From Candidatus Gottesmanbacteria bacterium UBA5942 (GTDB taxonomy: Bacteria > Patescibacteriota > Microgenomatia > UBA10105 > UBA927): a stretch of 64,000 nucleotides of DNA. Under the pieces are notes generated by a model. It made no database searches and was not told where the DNA came from. It saw nothing but the letters and a program-made list of their open reading frames with translations. Each line of letters starts with the position of its first letter. Position 1 is the first letter of the stretch. Location: contig DJCU01000008.1 in the NCBI GenBank assembly GCA_002430725.1, positions 393 through 64,392 of the forward strand. Reading direction: 5' to 3'. Shown one piece after another: positions 3 through 41,063 of the stretch. A program made the translations under genes and the position numbers.

Positions 3-3000
3 AGATATGCGATAGAGTTTTCTAATCTTCCGTATGTCAGTCTTACGGATGCAAAAAAAGACGTACTTACACTCGAGCAGAAATATCCAGGACAGCCAAT
101 GGTAAGTCGTGAATATGTACTGCGCAATAAAGATACAGCTGGAAAGCGGCCATATAGGGTTGTCACCGTTCCGTTTGATGTGTATGTCAATGACATATAT
201 TTGGCGAATAAAGTATCTGCAGGTATTACCGATCTTGAAATAGATATATTCCAGTTGGGTGTGGGGCGGTTATTCGTTCCAATATCTGAAATATCAGGTA
301 CACAACTAGCGGATTACGCCAGATACCTAGAGTACGCAAGAAATCCGACTGCGTGGAGATTCATGATTGAGCAAATGTGGAAAAAAGATGTGTTTGATAT
401 CCGCAGTAGCACCAGGCAAGTTGTTGAATTTACCCGTTCATTGAACGTAAAAAATGTTGGTCCATTGTTGGGTAGAGCGTGGAAGCAAACTAGCGCTGGT
501 ATTACTGCTGCAAGTAGCCGCATTTCACAGCGATTTAATACATTAGGAATTCGTATCCTTCCATTGCCCCGAGTGCAGGTTGTCGACAGCATCGGAACGA
601 ATGGAAGAACTGTGCAGTCATCAGTACGCTTTGATAAAGGTGCGCAGGACGCTTTGGTGGCTGACTTGCAGAGAACATATCAAACAGAATTTGGATTTAT
701 TGAGTCGGTAGAAAAGGCTCGAATTCAGAGCGCAGAGGTTACTACAGACTCGCTTATAAACAGTGTTATAGTTGAAGCAAGAACGGTGATGGCCTCGGGA
801 ACGAGTAAAGAAATTGAAGAGTTGGCTCTTCATACAGTGATAGCATTTGAGCGGCTGCTATCAGACAAAAAACAAATATCTTCATTTACTGATGCACAAC
901 TGTTGGCTATACGAAAAGCGATATTTAGCAAATCTATTGCAATAGAATTACCGACTGGCACAGGAAAAACATATGCCACCGCATGTGTCGCGCTCATTCG
1001 TGCGCTTATGGGGCAACCGGTGTTGGTTAGTTCAGCTAATGCTGATTTGGCACAGCGAGATTTAGCAGATGTTGGCGAGTTATTTAGACCGTTCCGCATA
1101 TCTTCAGGGTTCGCAGCAAAGGGAAAGTCATTAAATCCATCAATTCGTATTACGTACGGTAAACTTTCTGACATTGTGGCAGCATCGGGACGAGCACTTC
1201 GGACAGGTGTCGACATAGATATTAATGCATATACGTTGTTGCCTGATGAAGGAGATAAAAGTTTGTTGCAGGAAGCGTTAACTCCTATTGTTGAAGTAGA
1301 AGCGGCACAGGGTGAAAGTGCTGGCCTTACATCTGAAGAGGAGCTATTGATTGTAACAATGGCGCGCAACACACAGCAAATGGTTACTGAAGGAGGGTAT
1401 GTAATACCGGACGAACAACAAGAAATACTTTCTTTACTAACACCAGAAGCGAACGAAAAATTAGATACATACAAACCTGATGCAATGTCCGAAGAGAAGT
1501 TTATTGAGTACAAGGAGTTTGCGAGGCGCGCCGCGTTTATGCGAGAAGGAAAAGATTATCTTTATGATCAATATACCGGTGAGATCACATTACTCGATAA
1601 CGAGCAGTTGGCCGATCTCGATAAGAAATTCCAGTCGGGTATCCAGTGGGCGTTGGAGGCAAAACATGGGAGAACGTCAGGGTTTAGCGTTGTTAACGAT
1701 GAAGTGCGGGACAAACACACCACAATGGCATTTGTTCGTCAGGTTGGAAGCGTTATCGTGTTTACGGGAACTGCTTATGAAGAAATTGATGAATTAGAAA
1801 CATATTACGATTTAGAATACGCATCGATTCCACAACCGCTTTGGATATCTATCGCTAGACAACCTCAGGGTACTGATAGGCTGCGTTTAGTTGAGTATTT
1901 TGATCAGGCCAGCGGTATATGGCTTAACGCGATTATAGAAAATCAACAAGGTCAGTGGGTGATTATAGAAAAAGACAGAATTGATTACGAACCTCGATTG
2001 TTCGTTACTGAAGATGCTAAGTTGCATGCCATCCAATCAGACGCAGAGGTTTTGCGAAATTCTGGTCGTGCAGTTCTAGTTGCTTCACAAAATGAAGCGA
2101 GCATGGATAATATTGCATCACTTATTCCTAATGCAATCTCGATTTCTGAGCGTGAACGAGACGAAAAGCGTCAGAATATAGAAATCTCAGGGCACTCCGG
2201 AAATGTAGCAATCGGAAGCGCAAATATTGGAAGAGGTGTTAATTTCCAGCCGGACGAGCAAGTGCAACAAGCTGGCGGTTTTTACGAGATGATCACGGGC
2301 ATCATGAAGCCAAGCACACTTTCTCAGGTGCGCGGTCGTGTAGCGAGGTTGTCTCCGGTGAGGCAAGGCGCATATCAAGCAAGAGCGTGGGGAGCTACGA
2401 GACAATATTTATCTCTCTCGGACATTGCGTCTATATTAGGCTCTACAGATGCGCGAGTGAGAGAACTTGCATATCCTTCTGGTGAAATTACGAAAAACGA
2501 TCCCCGCTATCCAAAGATGGTGAAGCTGATTAGAGAGGCGGAATTAAAGATACAAGAACGTGAAAAGGTTGCGAGAGCTGCACAATTTTATGCAGATCAT
2601 GCTACAGATGAGATTGGTCATGTGCAAAGGCATTTGGCTTTATCAGGATTTGGTGCCGCAAGGCAAACTATTGATTGGTTACTGCGCAGGATAGCTCATG
2701 AAACAAATAGTGCTCTCAAGAAATCATATTTACATAGTGCTGAAGAAGTGTGGAAGCAATATCTAGCAGAGCTAGAAGTGCTAAAGACTACTGCATGGGC
2801 AGGTGCTCAAAGCGAAAAGATTGATCCGGAAATATATTACCAACGAGAATCTTCAACGCTCCTTCGGAATATGATTGCTGTTCTTGCTGATGTTGTTCCT
2901 GCAACAGTTATTGCCCCAACAATACCTATTTTGTCTGATGACGTATGCATGGGTAGTAAAGCAAACTGTGTGGTTGAGGCGGTTATTACTGAGCGGGTAA

Positions 3001-6000
3001 TAGACGCAATCCAGTCGAATAATATGACAGATACAGAAAAAATACAGGCACTGCAGGCATATAAACTTACTGAAAGAGATTTACCGGCACATCAGCTTGC
3101 TATTCATGATGCAACTATAGCGATAGCGTTGGCAGAGTTAGATGTGGCACAGGGTGCAAGCGCAAGAAGTGCGATAAATAGAGCGTTACAATCGCTCAAT
3201 GCGCGTCTTCAAGCACGTCCTGCTCCAGACGATGCAGCTTTGTTAGAGCGAACCAGGGAGGTACTTGAACAAATAAGAGGCGCGATGCCAGAAGGATCAT
3301 CACTTATGGACAGAGTGCGCGATTGGATGCCTGCACCAACAACTATTTTGCAAAGTAACCCAATCCTTGCTCAATTTGCAAAGTACTTTACGTTCGGTTC
3401 AAACATAATCGATACAGACGTAACCACTGTTTCATCGATTCAAGCTGAAGTTACTCTTGTCGCCACAACCCGCGCTGAAGCAGATCGGTATCGGAGCACA
3501 CTCAAGGCTACATACCCACGTTTCCTTCTCGAAACATTACCAACGGGTGACGACAATCAGTTTTTCTTTGTACGGAATGCATCGGGGGAGACAGTTGGAT
3601 TTATCGTTTACCAGACAGCAAATGAAGTGGTTGAGCTTCGTAACCTCATTATCGATCCTCAGTATCAGAACCAGTCGTATGGCACGAATGTGCTTGCTGT
3701 TCTTAAAGAACAATTTAATGAAATTCGATTAACCCCTGTTCCTCATTATGTCGCTGAAGGGGTTGAAGTAGACGATGCGTATGACGCGCTTGTTCGATTT
3801 TATGAACGGGCAGGGTTTATCAAGCAGACGGTGATTGAAAACAGATTTGAGGTAGAAAAATATGTGTGGCGATCTCCATCGGTTCAACGGTTAACAGATA
3901 TGCGTCCGGCTACGGGACGTGAGCGGGTACTGGATGGTGCGCGGGCACTGGAGAGGACATATAGCCCACTCACAAGATCCGCGAAACAAGCCGTACGAAG
4001 TGCTGCAACTTGGATAAATGATCGTATGTGTGGAGGTGCCGCATTTAGATTTATTCGTCCGGTGTTTGCACAGCTAGGTTCTCCGTCTGGAAACACCTCC
4101 TGTCCTGCGGGAAGCGTGGTGAATACGATAGCACCAGTGGCTGAAGCAGCGATGGATGCTCCGGTGGTAACCATGATGAATGCATTAGGTTTTGAAGAAC
4201 CAATTGCACAAATTCCGACTACTCGAGGAGTTGGTTTCTTTACTAGGACCATGCGTTATCAGGGGAGCATTGCTTCAGAGGAAAGTGTGTTCGGGGTCAT
4301 CATGGAAAAGACAATCGATGGTGTGCCCACCGGGAAATGGATATTGAATGTAATGGCAACTGATGAGCTGAGTCTGCCGCCAGTGAATGGCGAAAAAACA
4401 AAAGCGCTTGATGCGTGGTATTTGACTGATGGCTCTGAGTTTCGCGTAGGAACAAATGAGTATAGAGTGCGGGTAATCGATGGCATGTTGTATGTGTATC
4501 ACACCAATCCGCGAAATCCTCAAGGGGCTGAAGGGGATGCGATGGTGGTCGTAGCTGATCTCTATGGTATAAATCCGTTTGTCGAGTTAGCAGATCGCCC
4601 AGTCGCGAGGGACTGGTTCGAAGGGTTTGTAAAAAACAGAGTTATAGATGCTGGATTAGCGCGTATCCTTCCTGTGCCAGTTATTTCTGATGATATTAAG
4701 ATTGGCGAAAATCAAAACACTAATGTCGTTTCTCCAGGGAGACGCGAAGAAATTGTTGCGTCATTACGGAGAACTCGCGATCCGCTTCAAGTATTATCCT
4801 CTTTCTTGTTTATCCGCATGGTGAAAGCTGGATATCACATTTTGATTGCTGATATCGATAGTCTTTATCGGGCAAATCAAACCGGTGTTACCCCATACGG
4901 AGTAACAGGCGACATACTGCTTCATGATATTGCTGAGGCGTTGGGCGAGCTTAATCGTGAGTTTGGAATAGATATAGAGCTTCGGGTTGCAGGAGATACG
5001 TTTGCGTTAGTTTCCAAAGAACCGTTGCCTTCTGATATGGCTGATCGGGTGAAAAACCGTATACAGCAGGTGCGCGGTTTATATGGCGGACGGGGAGACA
5101 TCATTTCGTATGAGCCGGCACGCGTAAAAGTGTTAAGCACTCGCGGAGATGAGTGGATAGGTTTTTCAGAGCGTGATCCAAGCATACCCCATACGGTCAG
5201 AAGAGAGCGATTAGTGCGAATACATCCGGAAGTCGGCATGTTTTTTGACGAACTCGATGCATCATCCGTTTCTCAAGGTCAAAAAGAAGCGTACTTACAA
5301 TTTATTGAAGAAGCGTTGCTCGATCCTGTGCTCTTTACGGGAGCGCAAGACGCGGGGGTAGAGTCGTTTGTCCACCGGAATGACTATTTGGATCATTTAG
5401 TGCCTCACATGATAGACACGTTTGGAAAATCTGAATCGGATGGGAAAAATGCATATCTGGTGCGCATCAGTGTATCTGGTGTTCTTAAGCTCCTCAACGA
5501 TCGGTTTGGTGATGCCGCTGGTAATGTGTTTATCCGACACCTTTTTGATCGAATTATCGCGGTGAATAAACAGTTAGAGGTAGGTGATCTTGCGTGGTAT
5601 GACTTGTATCGGAAAGGCGGGGATTTTGAGTTGACGATAGTAGGAGATGAAGCGCAGGCGCAAGCGCTGATAAACGCGTTGACACAGGCACTCGCGGGGA
5701 CATATACCGAAGGTGGTCACGTGTATAATTTGCAGCCAACAGTCGTTTCTAAAATTATTGATATGCAAACGATAGACGGGCAAACAGTGGTTGATAAAGC
5801 GGAGCTTGAAGCAAGGTTTGGTGCTGTCGAAAGTGATTTGGCGCAGGCGGAATGGTATGAAACCGTCAGAAGGCAAACAAATCTCATGTTTGTCGATGAC
5901 AGCGAGCTTCAAACTGCGCTTTCATACTATGATCCATACGATAAGCGAGGTGCGGTGAGATTGTGGAAGTTGGGTTTGGTAGAAGATGCGGATGTAGAAG

Positions 6001-9000
6001 TGTTCAAACAGATGTACGTTGATCCTGCGAGTCAGAAACGATGGTATTCCGGTCTGTTTGAATGGGTGTATTGGAAATTACCTCCCGGATTTCGTTCGCG
6101 ATTTGCGAGTACGCTAATGCCTGCTCGTGAGCGGATACGTGCTGGTATGCTGCCTCGTGCAAAGGCGTTTCTTACCGATTATCTTGTACGATATGTCGCG
6201 GGATATGATCGCTCTGACAGTGTGTTAATCGCAGACCGTGCAGAGCACACCATGCTTAATTTCCGTTTGGAATTAGAGCGTTTGGTTGCCGAAGGGGAAG
6301 CGTTACAGCGCACGATCACCCCGTCAACGGATGATGTAATAATGCGCGCAATTCAGAGTGAAATTACGGAAATTTCTCGACAAATAGATGCGCATATTCG
6401 GACTATTTTCACTGACTTTACGGATGAACAGCTCCGTCAGTACAAGATTGACCGGAATATCCAACAACGTTTGATGGGCCCCGCAAGCGGAACGCTGGTA
6501 ACACCGCCTACTAACCAACAATTCAATGTTCGGGGCACACTGAGAAATCCTGCCGCCGCCGATGCAAAGCGGGTGCTTGTCGATGAGTTGGGAGTGCTTA
6601 CGGAGGAGCAGTTACGGGAAAGGACGCAAAAGTTGGTTACTGTGTCGCCCCTGACAATCATCAAAGACTCTATGTTTCCGAGCCAGGAAAATAGAAATAC
6701 GTATATGAAGTCATTAGGCGTGACCCGTTTGAGCGCGTTTGGAGAAGTGATATTTCGGCTGGTAAATCTGTATTCAGGACTGTTTGAACGAGGACACTTT
6801 GATGATCGTACCGGCCAACAGTATGTCGTGCCGATGACGGGATTGTCAGCACTCTTTATAGCAGCAGGTGTATATGTATTGCTTCATTTAGCTGCGCCTC
6901 CATTGGCAATAGTTACTGCAATTGCCGGAGTGTTGATGTTTATATTGCCCGCATGGCAGCTTATAACGTTTCCAAATGCTTATTATCATGAGCTCACCCA
7001 TGCGCTGAATATAACGCAGGATAAGCAGTTCGTTTCATATTCAGAATCTCAGGGTTCAGATCTCGCGAACGAAATATTTACCGATTACTTTACTCGAAGG
7101 GTGACGGAACAGTCGCAAACATTTTTTGGGAAAATAGCGCACTTGAGCTATCGAATGTTTGGAAATAACTACGGAGGTAAAATGTCATGGATACCGTTAC
7201 TTTTGGATGAGTTGGACAAAGGGGAAGTGCCTGGCACGGCAGAGCGTATGTTGGCACATTCATATTTTGCGAAACCGGGCGCTGAAAATGATTTTCAAGA
7301 ATTACTCCAAAGAAAATTGGGCAATGAACGCGCAGCGAATGTAATTGCCGCCATAAAGACAGTCTATGATGCTGGCTCAATGTCAAAGGATGATTTGTTA
7401 AAAACGAATGCTATTAAAAATATTTTAGAGACGCGCGTGCAGCAAGGAAATGAGGTAGAAGCGACCGCATATTTACAGGAGCTCGAAGCGCTCGTGGCTC
7501 GGGGAGAAGCCCTTCGCACAAGTATTTTGCCCTCCATGACCTCGGAAGGGAGAGTGCCTATCGAGGAGGAAATAGCAGAAATCAGTCGTCAGATAGATAC
7601 GCTTATACGAGGCGCAAATCCAGCATTTGATGATGTGGCACTTCGTCAGTACAAGATTGACCGGAATATCCAACAGCGCTTGATGGGCCCCGCAAGCGGG
7701 ATGCTTATGGCACCAGCTACTCCGTTGGTAGATCAATATGTGGCAACACCAGTAAATAGCGTTGGAGTGGCAAAAGCGAAAGCGAGCAAAGCCGGCCTCA
7801 TGCATAACGGGGTGCGGCAACTGGCTGATGGATCGACTATGACGATAGGAGGACAGGACGTCATTATCAGAAGCACCCGAACTGCAGTGATTGTGGATGG
7901 AGTGTCCAATAGTATACGGAATGATCAGGGTGAGAATTATTTTGATCAGGAGGTGCAGGATGAAGCAATGGTGCGTGCGCTAGCCGTTTATGGAGCTGTA
8001 CTTCGGGCATTTGATGAACTTGATTTAGATGGTGCTGATCCATCAAATAGGGTTGGCGACATTGTCACACTGATAGAAAGGCATCTTTCAACTATTGTTC
8101 CCGCGTCATCGCCCACAAATAGACCAGCACAAACGACTATCAGCGTGCACCACGCGGTGCAAACACCAACAGGGTGGAAAATAGTGAGCTTCCGTATTGG
8201 CGATCAAAGTGTATTTACTGTTTCACCGGAAGAAATTGGAGAAGTGTCACCGCCAAATAATTTTCATACTGCATTAAACGAGATGAGTGGGGCAGAAGTG
8301 CAGTTAGTTGACGTGCTTGAGGCTTGGAAAGCGTTGCCGCTGGAGATGAAGCGTTTATATCAGACGAGAACGACAAATTTGCCTCAGATGATCGAAGAAG
8401 GATACGCTGGAACTGTAGATATTTCAGCAATTCCTGTTGGTGGATTTGTGATTGTTGGCTCAGATGCGTTGCGGTCGCTTTTTGCTGATCGTCCTTCACT
8501 CGTGGGTGCATTACATAGTGAACTTAAAGGAGTGATAAGTGCACAGGAAGCAGAATCTCGCATCGTGGCATTTCTTGATCGGTATAGTAATTTATATGAC
8601 CAGATAGATGATGACGTGTCGTTTATCGTTTTTGCGCAAACGCCAGAAGGCGTGTTGGATAACGGTGTTTCCATAGCGGCTTCACCGAGAACGCTTGAGA
8701 CCTCTGTAGGCATTACGTCAGAACGCCCAGTGTTAGGAGAAGTGAAAGTAGACGGATTAACACTCGGATACTTTTCAGTAACGGATACACAGGCATATTT
8801 AACTGGCAATACCATCCCAATTTGGGTCAATAATAAGCGATATGATCCACATACGGAAACGCACGCTGGTATGGCATCTATAGAGGTGGGCGATACAGTG
8901 ACCTTTGTTCCCAAGACAACCAAAAATGTCATTTTATATGTTGTCGATGTTGACACACAGGGGCACATGATCCTTCGACACGCCAATCAGCGACCGGGTA

Positions 9001-12000
9001 AAAACGGAGATAATATCGACTTTTCTACTGAATCTCTTCGGGTTGTTCCCGCAGGATCGCGGTATAATTACGAACGGGCATTTGCGGCATGGAATGTGAC
9101 GAGTAACGAAGATAAAACTGCATTTCTTACTGCAGTGGCAACGCTTATCGATACGTTGCCAGAAAAAACAATATTTCCTGATGGAGACGACCAGATTTTC
9201 CGTGTCACAGGGTCGATAAATAGGACATTTGCGCAATTGGAGTTTGATGGGGTAATGAGAGAGATCCTTTCTCAGTTGCGCCCGGGAGAATCGGTAAGCC
9301 TTCGCGTGATACACCCCGATGGTGTTGTCATTGGTGATACCGCTATTGTGAAAGAGTCGGTAGACGTGGAACTTGGCACTATTACGCTTCGTGATGATGG
9401 GATAGCTGAGTTTCAAATGGGTAAAATAAAGCGATTGTCATCGCGGTTCCGAACAGAAAATGTGGCGGTGCCTGAAGCGTTGTCGTATAGCCCTGAACAA
9501 GTATTAGCGGTCATGATAGCGGCATTAGTAAAGCCCAGTTGTTATGTTGATGTAGGCGTACAACACAAAGTATATGCACAGTCGAAAAACCCCGAAACTG
9601 TAGGGAGCGTATGTCTCCTTGCTGCCCGCTCACTCATGAGTGCGGTGCGAAGCGCGGAACGTGGGCAATTTTGGCGTTCTATGCAGCAGTGGTGGCATGA
9701 ACAGCAAGTGATGTGGAATGTACTCCTTGGGAGACAGCGTGAACCGGTTTCGTTTCAAGATACATTAGATGTAGAACCAGCCATTGAATTGGAGGCAACG
9801 AGCGAAGCGCGCGAAGCAGTTATACGACTTTCAGAAATAACCGAGACCACGAGAGATGCTGAATTTATGGACATAATAAATCTTCCCGAGCTCTCGGTGC
9901 GAGATGCATTTCGTAGGCAGTTCGATACCGATATGACTGCATTTTTAGGATATATGTGGTTGTACGGACAACAAGAAGGAATGCTTACTGCCATAGAGAA
10001 ACAGACTGCCACTATCAATTTTCTCACTATGCTTCGTGATAGATATTCAGTCACATTACAGGCAGCACAACCATTCTTTTATCGTGAGTTAACTGAGGGT
10101 CATGAGCAGGATGCAAATCCTGCAGATTTTCTCATTTCCGATGCATTAGTAACGCTTATTGCAAGTAGTCCGACCGCGAGAGATGTGTATGCTGTGTGGC
10201 AAGAAATGGCGAAGGACACAAATCAGGACGTGCGATCACTTCAAGAAAATGAATGGCTCGTGCCGCATCCGTTTGATGACGGAAAAGAAATTCGTGTAAC
10301 ACACGAAGAAACATACGTGGAAGTGACGAATGGCGATGCTGTAGTACGACTTCCTATCGATAATACATATCATCCTTCGATACAAGAAGTTGCAGATAGT
10401 GTTGATGTGCTTGAGCCCGGTATTCGTGTATCGCTGCATACAGATGGTACTGCTGCTCTATTTGTGATGGCATATCAACACAGCATCGTTTGGGATGATG
10501 AGTATGAAATTAGATTTTCTACTGATAGACGGGGAAATTTGTATAAGAAAGGGGCAAAGCAAGCAGGCAAAATTACGGTATGGCCCAGATATACCGAAGA
10601 GTTTGCTGAGATTATCACCCCACCGCTTGCATTTGACGTGGCACATATAAACGGGACATATTTTGTGCAGAAAATGCCTAGCATTCGATTACACGAGGGT
10701 TTCGAGGTGATGAAACCAGATGGATCTCTGTATTCATTACAGGTGGGGGATGAAGTAAGTGAGATGGGTGTTTCGGATACGTATACGATCACCGATGCGC
10801 CCTTTGATTGGAAAGCGATAGGTGATGCTAACAAGTGGGTGTCGATATATGTAAGCCCGTTACGAGAAAGGGGTTTTGAGGGTCGTATTTGGGTAGATGC
10901 GGCAAATCCGGTGATACGTCATGTATCTAGCCCTGTCGATCCGTCCACAGAAAATATGAGTAGTGTGGTGCAGTCGATCCGCATACGTATTCCGGCAATT
11001 GTGGAGAAAAATAAAGCAATATCCCAAGCGCAAGCGACAACCACTACAGATGCGCTGAATAATGTCACACAAGCCATAACCGGAGTGTTTACGAATCCAG
11101 ATTGTTATGCCATGAGGAGTGAATACGTAGCGTACGCTGCCGAGACGACCCGCGATGGTACGTGTCCCACATGGGGAAAGTCGCCACGAAGGGTAGTGCG
11201 CGGCATGAGAAACAGAAGTGAACGGGAGCGGATGGATGCCGATGCTCGCAGTTATGTGCGGATGCTCATATTAGCAGTGCCTCCGATCGGATTTCTTGTA
11301 GACGGGGCGATTAAGGCAGGAATTTGGTATGTAACCGCTCCGCCTCCGCCACCAGTGACTCCACAGTGTACCTTGGGTTCATGTGCGGTGAATGGGCTGT
11401 GTCCCGCGGGTCAACAATGTAGCGCAACCGGTTGTTGTACACAGCTTTCTGCGTACGAAGATTTTGTTTGCTCGGTGGATAAACAGTATCTGTTGAAGCG
11501 CACCATGATAGCACCAGGTGGGTTTTCAATCGATATAAATGCGTCATTTAGATGTCTTGATGGGTGTGTCAATAATGATTGTGCGCAAAAAGCACAGATG
11601 ACGTTCCCTGAGCAGTGTACTGACGCGATGAAAAGGACACCGCTTCTTTATGGATTTGATAGTAATTATGGCGCTATGAATTCATGTCTTGCCATAGATG
11701 ATCTTGCGACCATGTCGTATTATCGTGAGTTTACTTGTAGTACAGATGGCTTGTCGGTCATAGAGCGTGCGACTGGAAATGTCGTGCGGACGTGCTTAGG
11801 CAACCAAACATGCAAACAATCTGGGGATATTGCTGATTGTTTGGGTCCGGTGGGGTACGTGCGACCGCAAAACGCAATTATCGATATGGTCTGTCAGGGA
11901 AATGACGTGTATTTGTTTGACTCTGATACACAGACATTTACCCAACACGTTGCCTCCTGTCCAGTGCGTGGTTGCCAGCAGGGCGCATGTATTGCATATG

Positions 12001-12740
12001 AAGGTGACCGATGCGATAGCTATGCAGTCGCGGGAGCAACAAATATTAATGCACATGTGAGTGTCGATGGCATGCCGATTAGCTGTAATGCAGAGGGAAA
12101 TGTGGTCGTTGCTGATGGGCTTAATAAACGCGTAAATGTCATTACAGGTGTCAATAATATTAAAAATCAGGTATATGACGCGTTAGCATTACTTCCTCCA
12201 GGGTTGATGAAAAAAGATTTTGAGATAGTGGTGTATCCTTCTGGCATTCTTTATGGGGATGACTTAAGTTGGCAATCACTTTGGCAGCGGGTGCTTGGTA
12301 GTGGACGAGACAATATAGGTGGTGTTGATAATCAAACGTTTCCATATCATCGGCGTATATTGCTTACCGAGCAGCAGCCAGAGTTGATGTCGTATGCAGT
12401 GATACATGAGGTAATGCACGCGTATGCGGTTGATCAGCTCACCATACCAGCGTTTGTGCCGCTTGCCGGATTTTATAATATGTTTTCAGTAGGGCAGCAT
12501 AGCAATACTCCAGTCGGATTTCACACAATGATAGGGTGTAAACCAGATGGTTCGTATGATGGTGTACCGTTTAGCGATTATCCCAATCCTGACTGCGCAG
12601 AGGAGTTTGCTGAAGAGGGTGCAGGGTACGTGTTTAAGGCGTGCGAGCTTAAGGCATACAACGAAGATCGGTATAACTACTTCAAAAACGAAGTTTTTGA
12701 TGGTCGAGAGTACCTTCCACCTCAGGGCTGCGTGAATTGA
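3..12740 (+). CDS. Giant multidomain protein, 5'-partial; contains a SecA-family motor ATPase core fused to GNAT, two GGDEF-like domains, a TM/HExxH segment and a Cys-rich C-terminal domain
   Basis: The ORF is uninterrupted from 99 to 12740 (4213 aa). I translated positions 3-98 in the same frame and found no stop, so the ORF is open to the window edge and its N-terminus lies outside the window. A 12.6 kb open frame cannot arise by chance. Domain calls are listed as separate 'other' features. The last 19 nt overlap the convergent gene 12722-13555. Confidence 0.85.
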   Translation, partial: RYAIEFSNLPYVSLTDAKKDVLTLEQKYPGQPMVSREYVLRNKDTAGKRPYRVVTVPFDVYVNDIYLANKVSAGITDLEIDIFQLGVGRLFVPISEISGTQLADYARYLEYARNPTAWRFMIEQMWKKDVFDIRSSTRQVVEFTRSLNVKNVGPLLGRAWKQTSAGITAASSRISQRFNTLGIRILPLPRVQVVDSIGTNGRTVQSSVRFDKGAQDALVADLQRTYQTEFGFIESVEKARIQSAEVTTDSLINSVIVEARTVMASGTSKEIEELALHTVIAFERLLSDKKQISSFTDAQLLAIRKAIFSKSIAIELPTGTGKTYATACVALIRALMGQPVLVSSANADLAQRDLADVGELFRPFRISSGFAAKGKSLNPSIRITYGKLSDIVAASGRALRTGVDIDINAYTLLPDEGDKSLLQEALTPIVEVEAAQGESAGLTSEEELLIVTMARNTQQMVTEGGYVIPDEQQEILSLLTPEANEKLDTYKPDAMSEEKFIEYKEFARRAAFMREGKDYLYDQYTGEITLLDNEQLADLDKKFQSGIQWALEAKHGRTSGFSVVNDEVRDKHTTMAFVRQVGSVIVFTGTAYEEIDELETYYDLEYASIPQPLWISIARQPQGTDRLRLVEYFDQASGIWLNAIIENQQGQWVIIEKDRIDYEPRLFVTEDAKLHAIQSDAEVLRNSGRAVLVASQNEASMDNIASLIPNAISISERERDEKRQNIEISGHSGNVAIGSANIGRGVNFQPDEQVQQAGGFYEMITGIMKPSTLSQVRGRVARLSPVRQGAYQARAWGATRQYLSLSDIASILGSTDARVRELAYPSGEITKNDPRYPKMVKLIREAELKIQEREKVARAAQFYADHATDEIGHVQRHLALSGFGAARQTIDWLLRRIAHETNSALKKSYLHSAEEVWKQYLAELEVLKTTAWAGAQSEKIDPEIYYQRESSTLLRNMIAVLADVVPATVIAPTIPILSDDVCMGSKANCVVEAVITERVIDAIQSNNMTDTEKIQALQAYKLTERDLPAHQLAIHDATIAIALAELDVAQGASARSAINRALQSLNARLQARPAPDDAALLERTREVLEQIRGAMPEGSSLMDRVRDWMPAPTTILQSNPILAQFAKYFTFGSNIIDTDVTTVSSIQAEVTLVATTRAEADRYRSTLKATYPRFLLETLPTGDDNQFFFVRNASGETVGFIVYQTANEVVELRNLIIDPQYQNQSYGTNVLAVLKEQFNEIRLTPVPHYVAEGVEVDDAYDALVRFYERAGFIKQTVIENRFEVEKYVWRSPSVQRLTDMRPATGRERVLDGARALERTYSPLTRSAKQAVRSAATWINDRMCGGAAFRFIRPVFAQLGSPSGNTSCPAGSVVNTIAPVAEAAMDAPVVTMMNALGFEEPIAQIPTTRGVGFFTRTMRYQGSIASEESVFGVIMEKTIDGVPTGKWILNVMATDELSLPPVNGEKTKALDAWYLTDGSEFRVGTNEYRVRVIDGMLYVYHTNPRNPQGAEGDAMVVVADLYGINPFVELADRPVARDWFEGFVKNRVIDAGLARILPVPVISDDIKIGENQNTNVVSPGRREEIVASLRRTRDPLQVLSSFLFIRMVKAGYHILIADIDSLYRANQTGVTPYGVTGDILLHDIAEALGELNREFGIDIELRVAGDTFALVSKEPLPSDMADRVKNRIQQVRGLYGGRGDIISYEPARVKVLSTRGDEWIGFSERDPSIPHTVRRERLVRIHPEVGMFFDELDASSVSQGQKEAYLQFIEEALLDPVLFTGAQDAGVESFVHRNDYLDHLVPHMIDTFGKSESDGKNAYLVRISVSGVLKLLNDRFGDAAGNVFIRHLFDRIIAVNKQLEVGDLAWYDLYRKGGDFELTIVGDEAQAQALINALTQALAGTYTEGGHVYNLQPTVVSKIIDMQTIDGQTVVDKAELEARFGAVESDLAQAEWYETVRRQTNLMFVDDSELQTALSYYDPYDKRGAVRLWKLGLVEDADVEVFKQMYVDPASQKRWYSGLFEWVYWKLPPGFRSRFASTLMPARERIRAGMLPRAKAFLTDYLVRYVAGYDRSDSVLIADRAEHTMLNFRLELERLVAEGEALQRTITPSTDDVIMRAIQSEITEISRQIDAHIRTIFTDFTDEQLRQYKIDRNIQQRLMGPASGTLVTPPTNQQFNVRGTLRNPAAADAKRVLVDELGVLTEEQLRERTQKLVTVSPLTIIKDSMFPSQENRNTYMKSLGVTRLSAFGEVIFRLVNLYSGLFERGHFDDRTGQQYVVPMTGLSALFIAAGVYVLLHLAAPPLAIVTAIAGVLMFILPAWQLITFPNAYYHELTHALNITQDKQFVSYSESQGSDLANEIFTDYFTRRVTEQSQTFFGKIAHLSYRMFGNNYGGKMSWIPLLLDELDKGEVPGTAERMLAHSYFAKPGAENDFQELLQRKLGNERAANVIAAIKTVYDAGSMSKDDLLKTNAIKNILETRVQQGNEVEATAYLQELEALVARGEALRTSILPSMTSEGRVPIEEEIAEISRQIDTLIRGANPAFDDVALRQYKIDRNIQQRLMGPASGMLMAPATPLVDQYVATPVNSVGVAKAKASKAGLMHNGVRQLADGSTMTIGGQDVIIRSTRTAVIVDGVSNSIRNDQGENYFDQEVQDEAMVRALAVYGAVLRAFDELDLDGADPSNRVGDIVTLIERHLSTIVPASSPTNRPAQTTISVHHAVQTPTGWKIVSFRIGDQSVFTVSPEEIGEVSPPNNFHTALNEMSGAEVQLVDVLEAWKALPLEMKRLYQTRTTNLPQMIEEGYAGTVDISAIPVGGFVIVGSDALRSLFADRPSLVGALHSELKGVISAQEAESRIVAFLDRYSNLYDQIDDDVSFIVFAQTPEGVLDNGVSIAASPRTLETSVGITSERPVLGEVKVDGLTLGYFSVTDTQAYLTGNTIPIWVNNKRYDPHTETHAGMASIEVGDTVTFVPKTTKNVILYVVDVDTQGHMILRHANQRPGKNGDNIDFSTESLRVVPAGSRYNYERAFAAWNVTSNEDKTAFLTAVATLIDTLPEKTIFPDGDDQIFRVTGSINRTFAQLEFDGVMREILSQLRPGESVSLRVIHPDGVVIGDTAIVKESVDVELGTITLRDDGIAEFQMGKIKRLSSRFRTENVAVPEALSYSPEQVLAVMIAALVKPSCYVDVGVQHKVYAQSKNPETVGSVCLLAARSLMSAVRSAERGQFWRSMQQWWHEQQVMWNVLLGRQREPVSFQDTLDVEPAIELEATSEAREAVIRLSEITETTRDAEFMDIINLPELSVRDAFRRQFDTDMTAFLGYMWLYGQQEGMLTAIEKQTATINFLTMLRDRYSVTLQAAQPFFYRELTEGHEQDANPADFLISDALVTLIASSPTARDVYAVWQEMAKDTNQDVRSLQENEWLVPHPFDDGKEIRVTHEETYVEVTNGDAVVRLPIDNTYHPSIQEVADSVDVLEPGIRVSLHTDGTAALFVMAYQHSIVWDDEYEIRFSTDRRGNLYKKGAKQAGKITVWPRYTEEFAEIITPPLAFDVAHINGTYFVQKMPSIRLHEGFEVMKPDGSLYSLQVGDEVSEMGVSDTYTITDAPFDWKAIGDANKWVSIYVSPLRERGFEGRIWVDAANPVIRHVSSPVDPSTENMSSVVQSIRIRIPAIVEKNKAISQAQATTTTDALNNVTQAITGVFTNPDCYAMRSEYVAYAAETTRDGTCPTWGKSPRRVVRGMRNRSERERMDADARSYVRMLILAVPPIGFLVDGAIKAGIWYVTAPPPPPVTPQCTLGSCAVNGLCPAGQQCSATGCCTQLSAYEDFVCSVDKQYLLKRTMIAPGGFSIDINASFRCLDGCVNNDCAQKAQMTFPEQCTDAMKRTPLLYGFDSNYGAMNSCLAIDDLATMSYYREFTCSTDGLSVIERATGNVVRTCLGNQTCKQSGDIADCLGPVGYVRPQNAIIDMVCQGNDVYLFDSDTQTFTQHVASCPVRGCQQGACIAYEGDRCDSYAVAGATNINAHVSVDGMPISCNAEGNVVVADGLNKRVNVITGVNNIKNQVYDALALLPPGLMKKDFEIVVYPSGILYGDDLSWQSLWQRVLGSGRDNIGGVDNQTFPYHRRILLTEQQPELMSYAVIHEVMHAYAVDQLTIPAFVPLAGFYNMFSVGQHSNTPVGFHTMIGCKPDGSYDGVPFSDYPNPDCAEEFAEEGAGYVFKACELKAYNEDRYNYFKNEVFDGREYLPPQGCVN
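800..2450 (+). other. SecA-family (DEAD motor, NBD1-PPXD-NBD2) ATPase core inside the giant ORF
   Basis: I matched motifs against E. coli and B. subtilis SecA from memory. FTDAQLLAI..IAIELPTGTGKT at nt 951-971 matches HFDVQLLGG..IAEMRTGEGKT (Walker A). GTGKTYATACVALIRALMGQPVLVSSANADLAQRD matches [35 protein letters not shown]. ITYGK matches ITYGTN. DEGDKSLLQEALTPIVEV at nt 1245 onward matches DEVDSILIDEARTPLIIS (Walker B). WALEAKHG matches QAVEAKEG. FTGTA at nt 1761-1775 matches GMTGTA. IGRGVNF at nt 2229 onward matches AGRGTDI. QVRGRVARL matches QLRGRSGRQ. Motif order and spacings (Walker A to DE about 98 aa, DE to TGTA about 172 aa) fit SecA. Confidence 0.7.
3540..3840 (+). other. GNAT-fold acetyltransferase-like domain inside the giant ORF
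   Basis: The segment VGFIVYQTANEVVELRNLIIDPQYQNQSYGTNVLAVL...YDALVRFYERAGFIKQ has a motif A-like Q-x-x-G-x-G/N and the typical C-terminal F-Y-E-R/K-x-G-F. Confidence 0.5.
4800..5080 (+). other. GGDEF-like nucleotidyl-cyclase palm domain 1 (degenerate: DID retained, GGDEF replaced by AGDTF)
   Basis: HILIADIDSLYRANQTGVTPYGVTGDILLHDIAEAL...IDIELRVAGDTFALVS aligns to the GGDEF consensus llDiDhFKxiNDtyGHxxGDxvL...RyGGDEFavl. Confidence 0.5.
5440..5720 (+). other. GGDEF-like palm domain 2 (degenerate: DxD replaced by SVS, signature reads GGDFE)
   Basis: LVRISVSGVLKLLNDRFGDAAGNVFIRHLFDRI...DLYRKGGDFELTIVGDEAQAQAL aligns to the same consensus. NDxxGxxxGN and RxGGD are retained, but the metal-binding DxD is lost. 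Confidence 0.5.
6435..6490 (+). repeat. Intragenic direct repeat copy A (56 nt)
   Basis: cgtcagtacaagattgaccggaatatccaacaacgtttgatgggccccgcaagcgg encodes RQYKIDRNIQQRLMGPASG. Copy A and copy B are 54/56 nt identical and the repeat unit is in frame (offset 1209 nt). The flanking roughly 80 aa are also similar at the protein level (..ISRQID..IR..F.D..LRQYKIDRNIQQRLMGPASG). Confidence 0.9.
6850..7010 (+). other. Predicted TM hairpin followed by HExxH motif (YYHELTHAL) in the giant ORF
   Basis: Two hydrophobic stretches, LSALFIAAGVYVLLHLAAPPLAIVTAIAGVLMFILPAW, are followed immediately by HELTH at nt 6985-6999. This resembles membrane-associated zincin signatures (M48 HELGH) and the DUF4157-type HELTHVvQ motif. 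Confidence 0.4.
7644..7699 (+). repeat. Intragenic direct repeat copy B (56 nt)
   Basis: cgtcagtacaagattgaccggaatatccaacagcgcttgatgggccccgcaagcgg has 2 mismatches to copy A. Confidence 0.9.
11340..12737 (+). other. Poly-Pro linker plus Cys-rich C-terminal domain carrying a second HExxH (IHEVMHAY at nt 12405-12419)
   Basis: A hydrophobic stretch (MLILAVPPIGFLV) is followed by APPPPPVTPQC and about 430 aa with roughly 40 Cys (for example CTLGSCAVNGLCPAGQQCSATGCC). HEVMH sits in a zincin-like context. The Cys richness suggests an extracytoplasmic, disulfide-bonded domain. Confidence 0.5.
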
Positions 12741-13555
12741 GCAAATATTTCCTCATTGTTAGCAAATGAGAATACATATTCAGGTTCGATAGCATGTTGC
12801 GTTCGATAAGTGGTTATCGCTTTCAATTTCTTGCGTTTTTCGAGTTTGTTTAGGTGTATGCGCATGAGCGGGGTATCGTTTGCAAACAAAGGCGCTGCGT
12901 CATTATGGATGACGTAGGTGAGTAATTGTCCCTGGTAGGCGATATGCTCCATAGCATCATCGACAAATTTTCGGGCGATGATGTGATCGAGTGCAGTGTC
13001 ACCTGTATCAGGTACGACAATAAGCGTTGGTTTTGTGCGTGTTATGGTAGTCGCAATATCGTTAGTCATTGCAGCATTGGCATAGGGCATACCTGTTTCC
13101 GGAGATGCTGAAAGACCGGTGTACCGGCTAGAAAAGGGGCTACCATCGTGGGTATTGTACACTTCTTCAAGTAGGCCATCCGGATACCCTAAAAATGTGA
13201 TATTGTGCCGAGAAAGTCCGAGGATATGTGTCGCACGGTATTCTTCTTTTTTACGAGCGTTACCAAGACGTAGATAGTCATCTGTTGTGAGCGATGTTGC
13301 GGGTTTTTTAGATAGATATGCTGCAGCATCTGTGTATGCTTCACCATGAGTTAGCTCGAGAATATGTATAGATTGTCCTTTGGTAATGGCTTGTTGTATG
13401 AAGCCAGCACAGCAAAGCACCGCATCATCAGGATGGGGGGCAATTATGAGAATATCAGCGCGTTGTGAAGTCGCCTGGGAAGATAAAAAGAGTGGGAAAA
13501 TACTAGCGAAGAATAGTGCTACAGAAAGCCATAAATATCGCGTATCGTAAAGCAT
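12722..13555 (-). CDS. LmbE/PIG-L family N-acetylglucosaminyl deacetylase-like protein with an N-terminal signal or TM segment
   Basis: IIAPHPDDAVLCCAGFIQQA..HGEAYTD matches the AHPDDE/zinc-binding motif of the PIG-L (LmbE) deacetylase family. The N-terminus is hydrophobic. Confidence 0.65.
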   Translation of the reverse strand: MLYDTRYLWLSVALFFASIFPLFLSSQATSQRADILIIAPHPDDAVLCCAGFIQQAITKGQSIHILELTHGEAYTDAAAYLSKKPATSLTTDDYLRLGNARKKEEYRATHILGLSRHNITFLGYPDGLLEEVYNTHDGSPFSSRYTGLSASPETGMPYANAAMTNDIATTITRTKPTLIVVPDTGDTALDHIIARKFVDDAMEHIAYQGQLLTYVIHNDAAPLFANDTPLMRIHLNKLEKRKKLKAITTYRTQHAIEPEYVFSFANNEEIFAQFTQP

Positions 13556-40265: not shown

Positions 40266-41063
40266 TTAATAAAATATATCTTCACCATTGGGGATCGTTG
40301 TTTTGTGCAGTTCTTTAACCGGTATACGGTTTCCTCCGATGTATAAAATTTTTAGATTTGGCGGAAGTACACGAGGAAATTCGCGTAGACGGTTGCCCGT
40401 AAGATCAAGTTCGGTGAGATTAGTGAGATATTGCATGCTGGCAGGTAATTCTTCAAGTTTGTTGTATGCCAAGCTAAGCGTCGTCAGATTGGTCAGGTTG
40501 CCGATTGATTCTGGTAGTCGGGAAATGCGGTTGCCTTCGAGATTAAGTATTTCGAGCGTTGAAATATCACCGATTTGCGTAGGAACTTCGGTAACCCGGG
40601 TATTTCTGATGGTTATTTGTTTAACATTTGTAAAAAGATTTATATTTGTAGGAAGTGATTCAAGTGGCGTATCTTCAATCAGAAGTAAGGTTACCCATGG
40701 CATGGGTTTTTGTAATGGTAATGTGCGTAATAGGTCGGTGCCGTCGAATATAAGTTCTTCTGTGGACGTTTTGGTGAGGTCGGGGTGATTATCTAATATA
40801 CGGAGAAAAAATGTTTGCGGTGAATATACTGCTTGCTGGTGAATTATCCGCTCCGGAAGTATATGTGCAAGATAAAAAAGTTGGGTAAACACCGCCAGCC
40901 ACATGTATACACTGATAGTCGCGATAACACATCCCACCAGTGACCACAATGCTATTTGGCGTATGTTAATGAGGCGATGAGTTTTGGGTTTTGCCGTGGG
41001 GACTATTGCTGCCGTGGAAGGCGCAAATGCGGTGGGTGATGGGGGGACAGGTTGCTCTTGCAT
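40266..41063 (-). CDS. Membrane-anchored leucine-rich-repeat protein
   Basis: The N-terminal TM helix WSLVGCVIATISVYMWLAVF is followed by LRR units: ISTLEILNLEGNRISRLPESIGNLTNLTTLSLAYNKLEELPASMQYLTNLTELDLTGNRLREFP. Confidence 0.7.
   Translation of the reverse strand: MQEQPVPPSPTAFAPSTAAIVPTAKPKTHRLINIRQIALWSLVGCVIATISVYMWLAVFTQLFYLAHILPERIIHQQAVYSPQTFFLRILDNHPDLTKTSTEELIFDGTDLLRTLPLQKPMPWVTLLLIEDTPLESLPTNINLFTNVKQITIRNTRVTEVPTQIGDISTLEILNLEGNRISRLPESIGNLTNLTTLSLAYNKLEELPASMQYLTNLTELDLTGNRLREFPRVLPPNLKILYIGGNRIPVKELHKTTIPNGEDIFY

What the first reader, a model, noticed from the sequence alone, without database searches (positions are those of the whole stretch)
6850..7010. TM hairpin immediately followed by HELTH (HExxH) in the middle of the giant ORF, plus a second HEVMH in the Cys-rich C-terminal domain (12405-12419)
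The two hydrophobic helices followed by YYHELTHAL resemble membrane-embedded zincins (M48 HELGH) and the DUF4157-type HELTHVvQ motif that marks polymorphic-toxin N-termini. The C-terminal IHEVMHAY lies in a disulfide-rich domain after a PPPPP linker, like secreted zincin effectors. Together they suggest a protein that spans the membrane (cytoplasmic ATPase, TM segment, extracellular Cys-rich metallopeptidase-like head) and is possibly autoprocessed.
Basis: partly seen in the sequence, partly recalled or inferred. Interest (0 to 1): 0.6.

Follow-up and report, generated by a model that had tools for sequence, protein, structure and literature searches.

The report
Two zinc-protease modules in giant protein
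A 4,213-residue protein of an ultrasmall (Patescibacteria-type) bacterium carries two separate, conserved zinc-protease-like modules that no curated family covers: a rare one fixed to a pair of membrane helices in mid-protein, and a disulfide-rich one at the very end that many related giant proteins share.

Summary
ORF 99-12740 (4,213 aa) has a 49-residue charge-free double hydrophobic segment (aa 2244-2292). HELTH follows 8 residues later (nt 6987-7001), and HEVMH lies at nt 12405-12419. Composition predicts 0.056 HExxH sites; two are present.

Both motifs are conserved in relatives, each with a downstream Glu.
- **Mid module (aa 2137-2460).** It was found in only four other giant proteins (three lineages). 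HExxH-x22-[ND]ExxTDYF is invariant and aligns in register with thermolysin's HELTH...NEAISD. There is no Pfam or PDB sequence hit, and no usable structure model.
- **C-terminal domain (aa 4014-4213).** It was found in about 28 proteins, always at the extreme C-terminus. H, E, H and the Glu of ExFA are invariant. The AlphaFold model has pLDDT 81, and its best fold matches are anthrax lethal factor, then MtfA. Member sequences give only sub-threshold Pfam hits, all but two of the nine families being zincins (M90, M61, M1, ATLF). Two cysteine pairs covary, as disulfides would.

Membership of M48 or DUF4157 is not supported. A two-helix hairpin returns the chain to the same side, so it cannot by itself export the head. 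Autoprocessing is untested. The closest relative (66-85% identical elsewhere) lacks the mid module, which is flanked here by an 81-aa direct repeat, so it behaves as a cassette. The whole protein fits the published class of giant proteins that carry a SecA_DEAD domain.

The parts
99..12740 (+). Giant ORF, 4,213 aa, multi-domain
   Evidence: The closest relative is P0001 (NCBI MCL4200211.1, Patescibacteria group bacterium, 7,694 aa). It is 66% identical over aa 1-1471 and 85% over aa 3639-4213.
717..1796 (+). SecA DEAD-like motor domain (aa 207-566)
   Evidence: Pfam PF07517, 39.1 bits against a cut-off of 24.6, E 6.7e-10. SecA_SW scores only 16.7 bits, below its cut-off of 26.7.
3534..3821 (+). 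GNAT acetyltransferase domain (aa 1146-1241)
   Evidence: Pfam PF00583 and PF13508, above their cut-offs. It is 43% identical to the L001 GNAT, which there lies directly upstream of the mid module.
4839..5075 (+). GGDEF-like domain (aa 1581-1659), borderline
   Evidence: PF00990 at 24.0 bits against a cut-off of 23.8; 28.4 bits when the segment is scanned alone.
6270..6512 (+). Direct repeat copy 1 (aa 2058-2138), ends ...YKIDRNIQQRLMGPASGTLVTPPT
   Evidence: BLASTP of the two copies: 50/81 identical, E 1e-30. DNA identity is 60%.
6507..7478 (+). Mid cassette (aa 2137-2460): helical N-part, two hydrophobic helices, HExxH helix, Glu helix, conserved C-part
   Evidence: 56% identical to L001 aa 3333-3672; 35% to P0003 and 29% to P0021. 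P0034 (6,392 aa, same 90% cluster as P0003) carries it too. It is absent from P0001.
6834..6896 (+). Hydrophobic helix 1 (aa 2246-2266)
   Evidence: KD19 1.98, no charged residue. A hydrophobic segment is present in all four homologues.
6900..6962 (+). Hydrophobic helix 2 (aa 2268-2288)
   Evidence: KD19 up to 2.25. The counterparts score 2.71 in L001 and 2.59 in P0003.
6987..7001 (+). HELTH (H2297, E2298, H2301)
   Evidence: Invariant H, E and H in the four-sequence alignment A2. Aligns with thermolysin H142, E143 and H146.
7068..7085 (+). NEIFTD (E2325 as proposed third zinc ligand, D2329)
   Evidence: E, T, D, Y and F are invariant in A2. Aligns in register with thermolysin N165-E166-A-I-S-D170.
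7479..7721 (+). Direct repeat copy 2 (aa 2461-2541)
11187..11339 (+). Arg-rich stretch (aa 3697-3719) followed by a weakly hydrophobic helix (aa 3720-3747); possible but unconvincing membrane crossing
   Evidence: KD19 is 1.78 here, 1.43 in P0001 and 0.5-1.8 in the other relatives. The segment contains D and K.
11340..12086 (+). PPPPP linker (aa 3748-3752) and Cys-rich region (aa 3757-3996)
   Evidence: A similar Cys-rich lead-in (C..GC..G.C) is present in homologues.
12138..12737 (+). C-terminal zincin-like domain (aa 4014-4213)
   Evidence: Alignment A3 of 23 sequences. AlphaFold pLDDT 80.7, pTM 0.80. The top Foldseek hits in the PDB are anthrax lethal factor. The domain is at the extreme C-terminus in all relatives but two, which have short tails after it.
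12405..12419 (+). HEVMH (H4103, E4104, H4107)
   Evidence: H, E and H are present in all 24 relatives that cover these columns. The motif lies in model helix 81-101.
12600..12617 (+). EEFAEE (E4168 as proposed third zinc ligand)
   Evidence: E4168 and F4170 are invariant in 29 of 29 sequences. E4168 lies at the start of model helix 153-166.

Best explanation
The ORF is a Patescibacteria-type member of the class of giant, multi-domain, membrane-associated proteins that carry a divergent SecA_DEAD motor. It holds two unrelated zincin-type modules.

**(1) Mid cassette, aa 2137-2460.** This is a rare, movable cassette. A two-helix hydrophobic hairpin is followed within 8 residues by a thermolysin-type (gluzincin) zinc site. 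H2297, H2301 and E2325 would bind zinc, E2298 would be the general base, and D2329 would support H2297 as D170 does in thermolysin. The hairpin would hold this active site at a membrane face, with both flanks of the cassette on the same side. By inference that side is cytoplasmic, because the neighbouring SecA-like, GNAT and GGDEF-like domains are cytoplasmic types. There it would cut membrane-proximal substrates, possibly the giant protein itself.

**(2) C-terminal domain, aa 4014-4213.** This is a new, uncurated zincin family with a lethal-factor/MtfA-like layout: a beta-sheet, then the HExxH helix, then an ExFA helix about 60 residues later. It is stabilised by two disulfides (C4147-C4166 and C4182-C4211) and sits behind a poly-Pro linker and a Cys-rich region. 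It is the constant C-terminal head of a set of Patescibacteria giant proteins. It most likely works outside the cytoplasm as a protease on host or prey or own surface proteins.

**Shown:** the motifs, their conservation, the hydrophobic hairpin, the cassette behaviour, and the fold resemblance of the C-terminal domain.

**Inferred:** zinc binding, catalysis, topology and substrates.
For: **Motifs beyond chance.** 0.056 HExxH expected, 2 found.

**Mid module.**
- Present in the window, L001 (56% identical), P0003/P0034 (35%) and P0021 (29%).
- Of 39 invariant columns, H161, E162, H165, E189, T192, D193, Y194 and F195 form HExxH-x23-ExxTDYF.
- The HExxH-to-TEQS segment is the most conserved part: 42/49, 22/49 and 18/49 identical. 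The hairpin scores 23/45, 9/45 and 11/45. That is the pattern expected for a catalytic core next to a helix constrained only in composition.
- Compared with the verified thermolysin segment, both motifs align in register. hhalign gives P 4.8e-4 and probability 32%; BLASTP gives 14/39 identical, E 0.006, for a single hand-picked comparison.
- aa 2244-2292 has no charged residue.

**Cassette behaviour.**
- P0001 shares aa 1-1471 and aa 3639-4213 with the window protein but not the module.
- In L001 the module directly follows a GNAT domain.
- In the window an 81-aa repeat (62% identical) brackets it.

**C-terminal domain.**
- About 28 relatives, always C-terminal, on proteins of up to 7,694 aa.
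- Invariant H90, E91, H94, E155, F157 and others in 23 sequences and in 29 sequences.
- Sub-threshold Pfam hits to nine families, seven of them zincins: M90 (4 members, best 2.4e-4), M61, M1, SprT, M78, ATLF, MPTase-PolyVal. The M90 hit of P0029 spans both motifs.
- The PDB profile search finds the HExxH helix of aminopeptidase N, E 0.034.
- AlphaFold pLDDT 80.7 and pTM 0.80, with strand 72-77, then helix 81-101 (HExxH), then helix 153-166 (Glu).
- Foldseek top hits are anthrax lethal factor (probability 0.89-0.91, TM about 0.5), with MtfA (3dl1, 3khi) further down.
- Cys4147 and Cys4166 are lost together in 3 sequences; Cys4182 and Cys4211 are lost together in L001.

**Class context.** Giant proteins with many TM segments, a divergent SecA_DEAD lacking the wing/scaffold, GGDEF, phosphatases, acetyltransferases and peptidases are described in bioRxiv 10.1101/2023.11.21.568195. 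P0003 ends in VanY, another extracellular-type zinc hydrolase.
Against: **Mid module.**
- No Pfam, PDB-sequence or profile hit to any peptidase family.
- The single-sequence AlphaFold model is unusable (pLDDT 41.6), so there is no fold evidence.
- The predicted region upstream of HExxH is helical or membrane-embedded, not the beta-sheet that zincins use to bind substrate.
- Only five sequences, in four independent lineages, support the conservation argument.
- The thermolysin alignment was hand-picked and covers only 35-39 residues.

**C-terminal domain.**
- Foldseek E-values are about 0.1, none at or below 0.001. TM scores are about 0.5. All Pfam hits fall below their curated cut-offs.

**Topology.**
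- No signal peptide and no convincing odd TM crossing.
- Two further Cys (C3669, C3689) lie upstream of the weak helix.
- The TM calls rest on hydropathy only.
Confidence: 0.6

Rival explanations
1. The mid-protein HELTH/NEIFTD pair is not a peptidase site. The cassette would be a membrane-anchoring or protein-interaction module whose conserved His, Glu and Asp residues bind a metal structurally, or serve some non-proteolytic function. Only the C-terminal domain would be a zincin.
For: No family or fold support for the mid module. hhalign against the C-terminal zincin family aligns only the HExxH helix, at probability 2.8%. No beta-sheet is predicted before the motif (low confidence).
Against: The exact HExxH...[ND]Exx[ST]D signature, with the E-to-D spacing of thermolysin, is invariant down to 27% identity. 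It is also the most conserved segment of the cassette.
Confidence: 0.28
2. One reading: the mid module is an M48 (Ste24/HtpX)-type or DUF4157-type zincin, and marks a polymorphic-toxin-like architecture.
For: HExxH follows TM helices, as in M48.
Against: Neither PF01435 nor PF13699 is listed at E <= 10 for any of the four module sequences. There is no Q at HExxHxxQ. The Glu ligand lies at +24 with no further TM helices. The module sits in mid-protein, not at an N-terminus. The conserved part of these proteins is the C-terminus, the opposite of polymorphic toxins.
Confidence: 0.05
3. The C-terminal zincin is a delivered toxin or effector tip, acting inside a host or prey cell as lethal factor does, rather than a surface or processing protease of the producer.
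For: The best structural neighbour is anthrax lethal factor. Relatives carry effector-like enzymes such as Fic, GNAT and phosphatases. Patescibacteria are commonly episymbionts (background knowledge; for the view that such giant proteins target prey).
Against: Disulfide-type Cys covariation fits an extracellular working site better than a cytosolic one. No translocation apparatus or immunity gene is evident next to the gene: the downstream neighbour is a convergent PIG-L deacetylase. The domain is constant while the upstream parts vary.
Confidence: 0.15
4. The two HExxH motifs are chance occurrences in a long protein.
For: HExxH is a short motif and the protein is long.
Against: 0.056 expected against 2 observed (P about 0.0015). 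Both are invariant in all homologues, together with a downstream Glu.
Confidence: 0.02
5. The TM hairpin plus HExxH is the first His box of a membrane di-iron desaturase or hydroxylase-like domain.
For: Membrane desaturases and AlkB carry an HExxH-like box just after a TM hairpin (background knowledge).
Against: Only two His residues (H161, H165) are invariant in the cassette. No second or third His box is conserved. There is no FA_desaturase hit.
Confidence: 0.01

Closest known systems
Thermolysin-type gluzincins (MEROPS clan MA(E); M4, also the M1/M13 signature HExxH + ExxxD)
   Same: The mid module has HELTHA, then 22 residues, then NEIFTD. Thermolysin has HELTHA, then 18 residues, then NEAISD. 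The His/Glu/His/Glu/Asp register is identical and is invariant in all homologues.
   Different: No detectable homology outside about 39 residues and no Pfam M4 or M4_C hit. Two hydrophobic helices precede the motif instead of the beta-rich N-domain. The module is embedded in the middle of a 4,213-aa protein. The fold is untested.
Integral-membrane gluzincins M48 (Ste24, HtpX) and M56 (BlaR1/MecR1)
   Same: A zinc site held next to TM helices; a juxtamembrane HExxH.
   Different: No sequence match. In M48 the Glu ligand comes after further TM helices, whereas here it lies 24 residues on in a soluble helix. Only one hairpin is present.
Anthrax lethal factor catalytic domain (M34, Pfam ATLF) and MtfA (M90)
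   Same: The C-terminal domain has HExxH plus a Glu in an E-x-F-A helix about 60 residues downstream. Its best fold matches are LF (probability about 0.9, TM about 0.5), then MtfA. Weak M90 and ATLF Pfam hits are found in members.
   Different: All hits are below family thresholds. There are four conserved Cys forming two covarying pairs, and a Cys-rich lead-in. The domain is always the last 200 residues of very large Patescibacteria proteins, ending in a conserved GxEY(L/I)PxxGC tail.
Giant SecA_DEAD-bearing proteins of Omnitrophota and Actinobacteriota (West-Roberts et al., bioRxiv 10.1101/2023.11.21.568195)
   Same: A divergent SecA_DEAD without the wing/scaffold, GGDEF, acetyltransferase and peptidase domains, scattered TM segments, and a mosaic domain content.
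   Different: This protein is much smaller (4.2 kaa against more than 30 kaa) and comes from Patescibacteria. The peptidases discussed in that paper are C39 and S8. Neither zincin module described here is mentioned in the passages read.

Membership tests
Peptidase M48 (PF01435) | Profile match to the family | tested here: not met
   Not listed at E <= 10 for the window segment or for any of the 4 module sequences.
Peptidase M48 (PF01435) | HExxH, with the Glu ligand after additional TM helices | tested here: not met
   HExxH is present. The conserved Glu lies 24 residues after the second His, and no hydrophobic segment follows.
DUF4157 (PF13699) | Profile match and the HExxHxxQ motif | tested here: not met
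   No hit at E <= 10. The motif reads HELTHALN, HELVHTVV or HETTHRLN.
Gluzincins, thermolysin-like signature | HExxH plus a Glu at least 18 residues downstream in an (N)ExxxD helix | tested here: met
   HExxH-x23-E-x3-D is invariant in 4 of 4 sequences and aligns in register with thermolysin.
Gluzincins, thermolysin-like signature | Zincin fold: beta-sheet with an edge strand, an active-site helix and a Glu helix converging on one metal site | tested here: inconclusive
   The single-sequence AlphaFold model has pLDDT 41.6.
Gluzincins, thermolysin-like signature | Profile match to Peptidase_M4 or M4_C | tested here: not met
Gluzincins, thermolysin-like signature | Zinc binding and proteolysis | not testable with these tools
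   Needs biochemistry.
Anthrax LF-like (PF07737 ATLF, M34) | Profile match above the gathering score | tested here: not met
   2 of 23 members match, best E 0.05. The window sequence itself gives no hit.
Anthrax LF-like (PF07737 ATLF, M34) | Fold similarity of the catalytic domain, with HExxH and a downstream Glu helix | tested here: inconclusive
MtfA / Peptidase M90 (PF06167) | Profile match above the gathering score (26.2 bits) | tested here: not met
   4 of 23 members match, best E 2.4e-4. P0029 scores 14.9 bits, spanning both motifs.
Giant SecA_DEAD proteins (West-Roberts et al. 2023) | SecA_DEAD domain present, wing/scaffold absent | tested here: met
   PF07517 at 39.1 bits, above its 24.6 cut-off. 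SecA_SW at 16.7 bits, below its 26.7 cut-off. Description of the class.
Giant SecA_DEAD proteins (West-Roberts et al. 2023) | Numerous TM regions and extreme length (>30,000 aa in the paper's focus set) | tested here: not met
   4,213 aa, with one clear hairpin plus one weak segment.
Polymorphic toxin systems | Conserved N-terminal or trafficking part, a variable C-terminal toxin, and an adjacent immunity gene | tested here: not met
   The C-terminus is the conserved part while the upstream domains vary. The downstream gene is a convergent PIG-L deacetylase.

The most novel reading that the evidence does not exclude
The hairpin-gluzincin cassette is a membrane-face self-processing protease. 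It would cut the giant protein in cis at the conserved ...YKIDRNIQQRLMGPASG... ends of the 81-aa repeats that bracket it. That would separate the cytoplasmic enzyme array (SecA-like motor, GNAT, GGDEF-like) from the C-terminal half that carries the disulfide-rich lethal-factor-like head. The logic would resemble MARTX/CPD-type polyprotein maturation, but built on a zincin, in ultrasmall episymbiotic bacteria.
Probability: 0.08. Interest if true: 0.7.

Novelty: new variant of a known kind. Interest (0 to 1): 0.45.

Why it matters
Giant proteins of ultrasmall, host-dependent bacteria are largely unannotated, and how they are matured, anchored and used against hosts is unknown. This work adds two uncurated protease-type modules to the parts list.

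- The C-terminal lethal-factor/MtfA-like head, with its disulfides, is shared by many Patescibacteria giant proteins. It is a concrete candidate for the surface-active end of these proteins.
- The membrane-hairpin gluzincin cassette is very rare. It is a candidate for membrane-proximal processing.

Both modules are small enough to express and test. The C-terminal alignment (23 or more sequences) is ready to seed a family model that would annotate many proteins now labelled hypothetical.

Tried and rejected
**Searches that failed or found nothing**
- The whole-protein homology search timed out.
- Word-indexed searches with the mid segment, the C-terminal segment and the four-sequence profile found nothing. 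They did not even recover P0003 or P0021, so the nulls reflect the word prefilter.
- Viral and metagenome locus scans with the mid-module alignment found nothing.
- My custom degenerate DNA pattern for HExxH-x22-[ND]ExxTDYF in metagenome contigs had 65 N instead of 66. Its zero result is void and the scan was wasted.
- An exact look-up of the window protein found no record.

**Structure work that failed**
- The single-sequence AlphaFold model of the mid cassette has pLDDT 41.6 and was not used for fold search.

**Ideas tested and rejected**
- hhalign of the mid module against the C-terminal family gives probability 2.8%, so the two modules are not detectably related.
- A desaturase-type His box is rejected because only two His are invariant.
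- M48 and DUF4157 membership is rejected.
- The 81-aa flanking repeat was not found in any related giant protein.
- Other HExxH sites in related giants (L001 aa 184 and 2901, P0008 aa 272, P0023 aa 2002, P0003 aa 3168) lack the hairpin and do not match the cassette profile.

**Method note**
- The exhaustive phmmer job used a concatenation of two window segments (aa 2137-2445 plus aa 3986-4213), so that one capped job covered both modules.
Full report
**1. What is at the coordinates**

The window holds one ORF from 99 to 12740 on the + strand, 4,213 aa. Pfam recognises three domains:
- a SecA DEAD-like domain at aa 207-566 (39.1 bits, above its cut-off);
- a GNAT acetyltransferase at aa 1146-1241;
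- a borderline GGDEF-like domain at aa 1581-1659.

Nothing is recognised from aa 1700 to the end, even at E <= 10 on sub-segments.

The protein has exactly two HExxH sites: HELTH at aa 2297-2301 (nt 6987-7001) and HEVMH at aa 4103-4107 (nt 12405-12419). With 1.4% His and 6.6% Glu, 0.056 sites are expected, so the Poisson P(>=2) is about 0.0015.

Directly upstream of HELTH, aa 2244-2292 (VPMTGLSALFIAAGVYVLLHLAAPPLAIVTAIAGVLMFILPAWQLITFP) has no D, E, K or R. It holds two Kyte-Doolittle-19 maxima, 1.98 and 2.25, split by HLAAPP.

**2. Relatives**

Word-indexed searches found nothing. A scan of species-representative genomes found one locus, L001 (CAYUKU010000002.1). The record title calls it an uncultured gammaproteobacterium, which I did not verify. 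It encodes a 6,186-aa ORF.

An exhaustive phmmer search of 1.84 billion representatives gave 31 hits. The query was a concatenation of the two window segments.
- Named relatives are Patescibacteria: MCL4200211.1 (P0001) is labelled Patescibacteria group, and OGV90455.1 (P0023) Microgenomates group.
- P0001 (7,694 aa) is 66% identical to window aa 1-1471 and 85% identical to aa 3639-4213. It has no counterpart of the middle.

The window's neighbourhood is an envelope-glycan gene cluster. The organism is most likely a Patescibacteria/CPR bacterium.

**3. The mid module**

It occurs in the window, L001 (56% identical), P0003 and its cluster-mate P0034 (35%), and P0021 (29%). All of these are proteins of 4,000-6,400 aa.

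In the four-sequence alignment A2, only 39 columns are invariant. They include H161, E162 and H165, and then E189, T192, D193, Y194 and F195. That is HExxH, 23 residues, then E-x-x-T-D-Y-F.

Conservation differs by segment:

| Segment | vs L001 | vs P0003 | vs P0021 |
|---|---|---|---|
| HExxH to TEQS | 42/49 | 22/49 | 18/49 |
| Two hydrophobic helices | 23/45 | 9/45 | 11/45 |

The hydrophobic helices keep their hydrophobicity, with KD19 up to 2.71 and 2.59. A sequence-constrained core beside composition-constrained helices is what a catalytic site next to membrane helices should look like.

The signature recalled thermolysin to me. I checked my remembered thermolysin segment against the PDB, and it is identical to 1KEI residues 110-248. 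I then compared it directly:
- hhalign of A2 against it aligns HELTH...NEIFTD with HELTH...NEAISD in register (35 columns, P 4.8e-4, probability 32%);
- BLASTP gives 14/39 identical, E 0.006.

H2297, E2298, H2301, E2325 and D2329 thus correspond to thermolysin H142, E143, H146, E166 and D170. This was a single hand-picked comparison over a short stretch. It shows a shared zinc-site signature, not family membership.

Against the peptidase reading:
- no Pfam or PDB-sequence hit for any of the four sequences;
- only insignificant hits to 2-TM families;
- an unusable structure model (pLDDT 41.6).

M48 and DUF4157 are not supported. A desaturase-type His box is excluded, because no further His is conserved.

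**4. Cassette behaviour**

The module is missing from the closest relative, P0001. In L001 it sits directly after a GNAT domain. In the window it is bracketed by an 81-aa direct repeat, aa 2058-2138 and aa 2461-2541. The copies are 62% identical in protein and 60% in DNA, and both end in YKIDRNIQQRLMGPASG. None of the other giants has this repeat. Whether the repeat is a recombination scar or a functional element, such as a cleavage site, is open.

**5. The C-terminal domain**

About 28 relatives carry it. In all but two it is the very C-terminus, on proteins from fragments up to 7,694 aa; P0030 and P0031 carry short tails after it.

- In 23 sequences the invariant residues are H90, E91, H94, E155, F157, Y164, C169, Y179, E191 and Y192 (domain numbering).
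- Over 29 sequences, H/E/H is present wherever the region is covered. E4168 and F4170 are universal.

Members give only sub-threshold Pfam hits, to nine families of which seven are zincins: M90, M61, M1, SprT, M78, ATLF and MPTase-PolyVal. The M90 hit of P0029 spans both motifs. A PDB profile search finds the HExxH helix of aminopeptidase N at E 0.034.

Cys4147 and Cys4166 are replaced together in three sequences. Cys4182 and Cys4211 are replaced together in L001. Two disulfides would explain this, and they argue for an extracytoplasmic working place.

I conclude that this is a new zincin family, closest in layout to M34/M90 but a member of neither.

**6. Topology and mechanism**

A hairpin with a loop of 2-6 residues returns the chain to the side it came from.

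The only candidate for an odd crossing is aa 3720-3747. An Arg-rich stretch precedes it and PPPPP follows. It scores KD 1.78 and contains D and K. In relatives its counterparts score 0.5-1.8, with 1.43 in P0001. Two more Cys also lie upstream of it. How the head gets out is unresolved. The published work on SecA_DEAD giant proteins also reports that TM predictions on such proteins are unreliable, and it proposes that the built-in SecA-like motor helps export.

My best reading has two parts:
- a juxtamembrane gluzincin in mid-protein, acting on the same side as its flanks;
- an exported, disulfide-stabilised LF/MtfA-like protease head.

P0003, which shares the cassette, ends in VanY, another extracellular-type zinc hydrolase. 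That fits a design of "hydrolytic head at the C-terminus".

**7. Novelty and score**

Zincins, membrane-tethered zincins and giant SecA_DEAD proteins are all known. What is new is two uncurated modules and their arrangement. One is very rare: only two hits among 1.84 billion cluster representatives, plus L001 and one cluster-mate. The other is a recurrent C-terminal head of Patescibacteria giants.

That makes this a new variant of a known kind. It is useful for annotation and testable, but it does not change a concept unless self-processing is shown. Interest 0.45.

Noticed in passing
window 54612-61181 (-): A second large ORF of 2,189 aa, with five Laminin_G_3 (ConA-like lectin) repeats and an Rha78A-type Ig domain. 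It is probably a surface adhesin or glycan binder.
   Followed up: no
window ~12700-53000: A dense envelope-glycan gene cluster: PIG-L deacetylase, an NPCBM protein, YfhO, PMT_2, several GT2 and GT4 glycosyltransferases, two DegT aminotransferases, two Wzy_C ligase/polymerase-like proteins, a radical SAM/SPASM enzyme and a hexapeptide transferase. A small LRR protein lies at 40266-41063.
   Followed up: partly
window 1-64000: GC skew is positive (0.08-0.25) in every 2-kb bin except 58-60 kb, whichever strand the genes are on. This suggests a strong replication-strand bias across the whole window.
   Followed up: no
window 12722-12740: The convergent PIG-L ORF (12722-13555, - strand) overlaps the 3' end of the giant ORF by 19 nt.
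   Followed up: no
window 6270-6512 and 7479-7721: An 81-aa direct repeat (62% aa identity, 60% DNA identity) brackets the hairpin-HELTH cassette. Both copies end in YKIDRNIQQRLMGPASG. It was not found in related giants.
   Followed up: partly
L001 5-18565: The 6,186-aa relative carries Fic, YkoP and GNAT domains. It has three further HExxH sites, including HEAGH...WNEGMATAF at aa 184 (an M1-like HExxH-x18-E signature) and another HELTH at aa 2901. It also has many more hydrophobic pairs than the window protein.
   Followed up: partly
L002 3001-21498 (P0003): This 6,165-aa giant shares the mid cassette. It has FHA and calcineurin-like phosphoesterase domains upstream. It ends in a VanY D-Ala-D-Ala carboxypeptidase domain instead of the LF-like head. 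Its neighbours include a PilO-like gene.
   Followed up: partly
window 4059-4490 (aa 1321-1464): A segment 30% identical to L001 aa 1509-1650 (E 4e-10) with no Pfam match. It is another shared, uncharacterised module of these giants.
   Followed up: no
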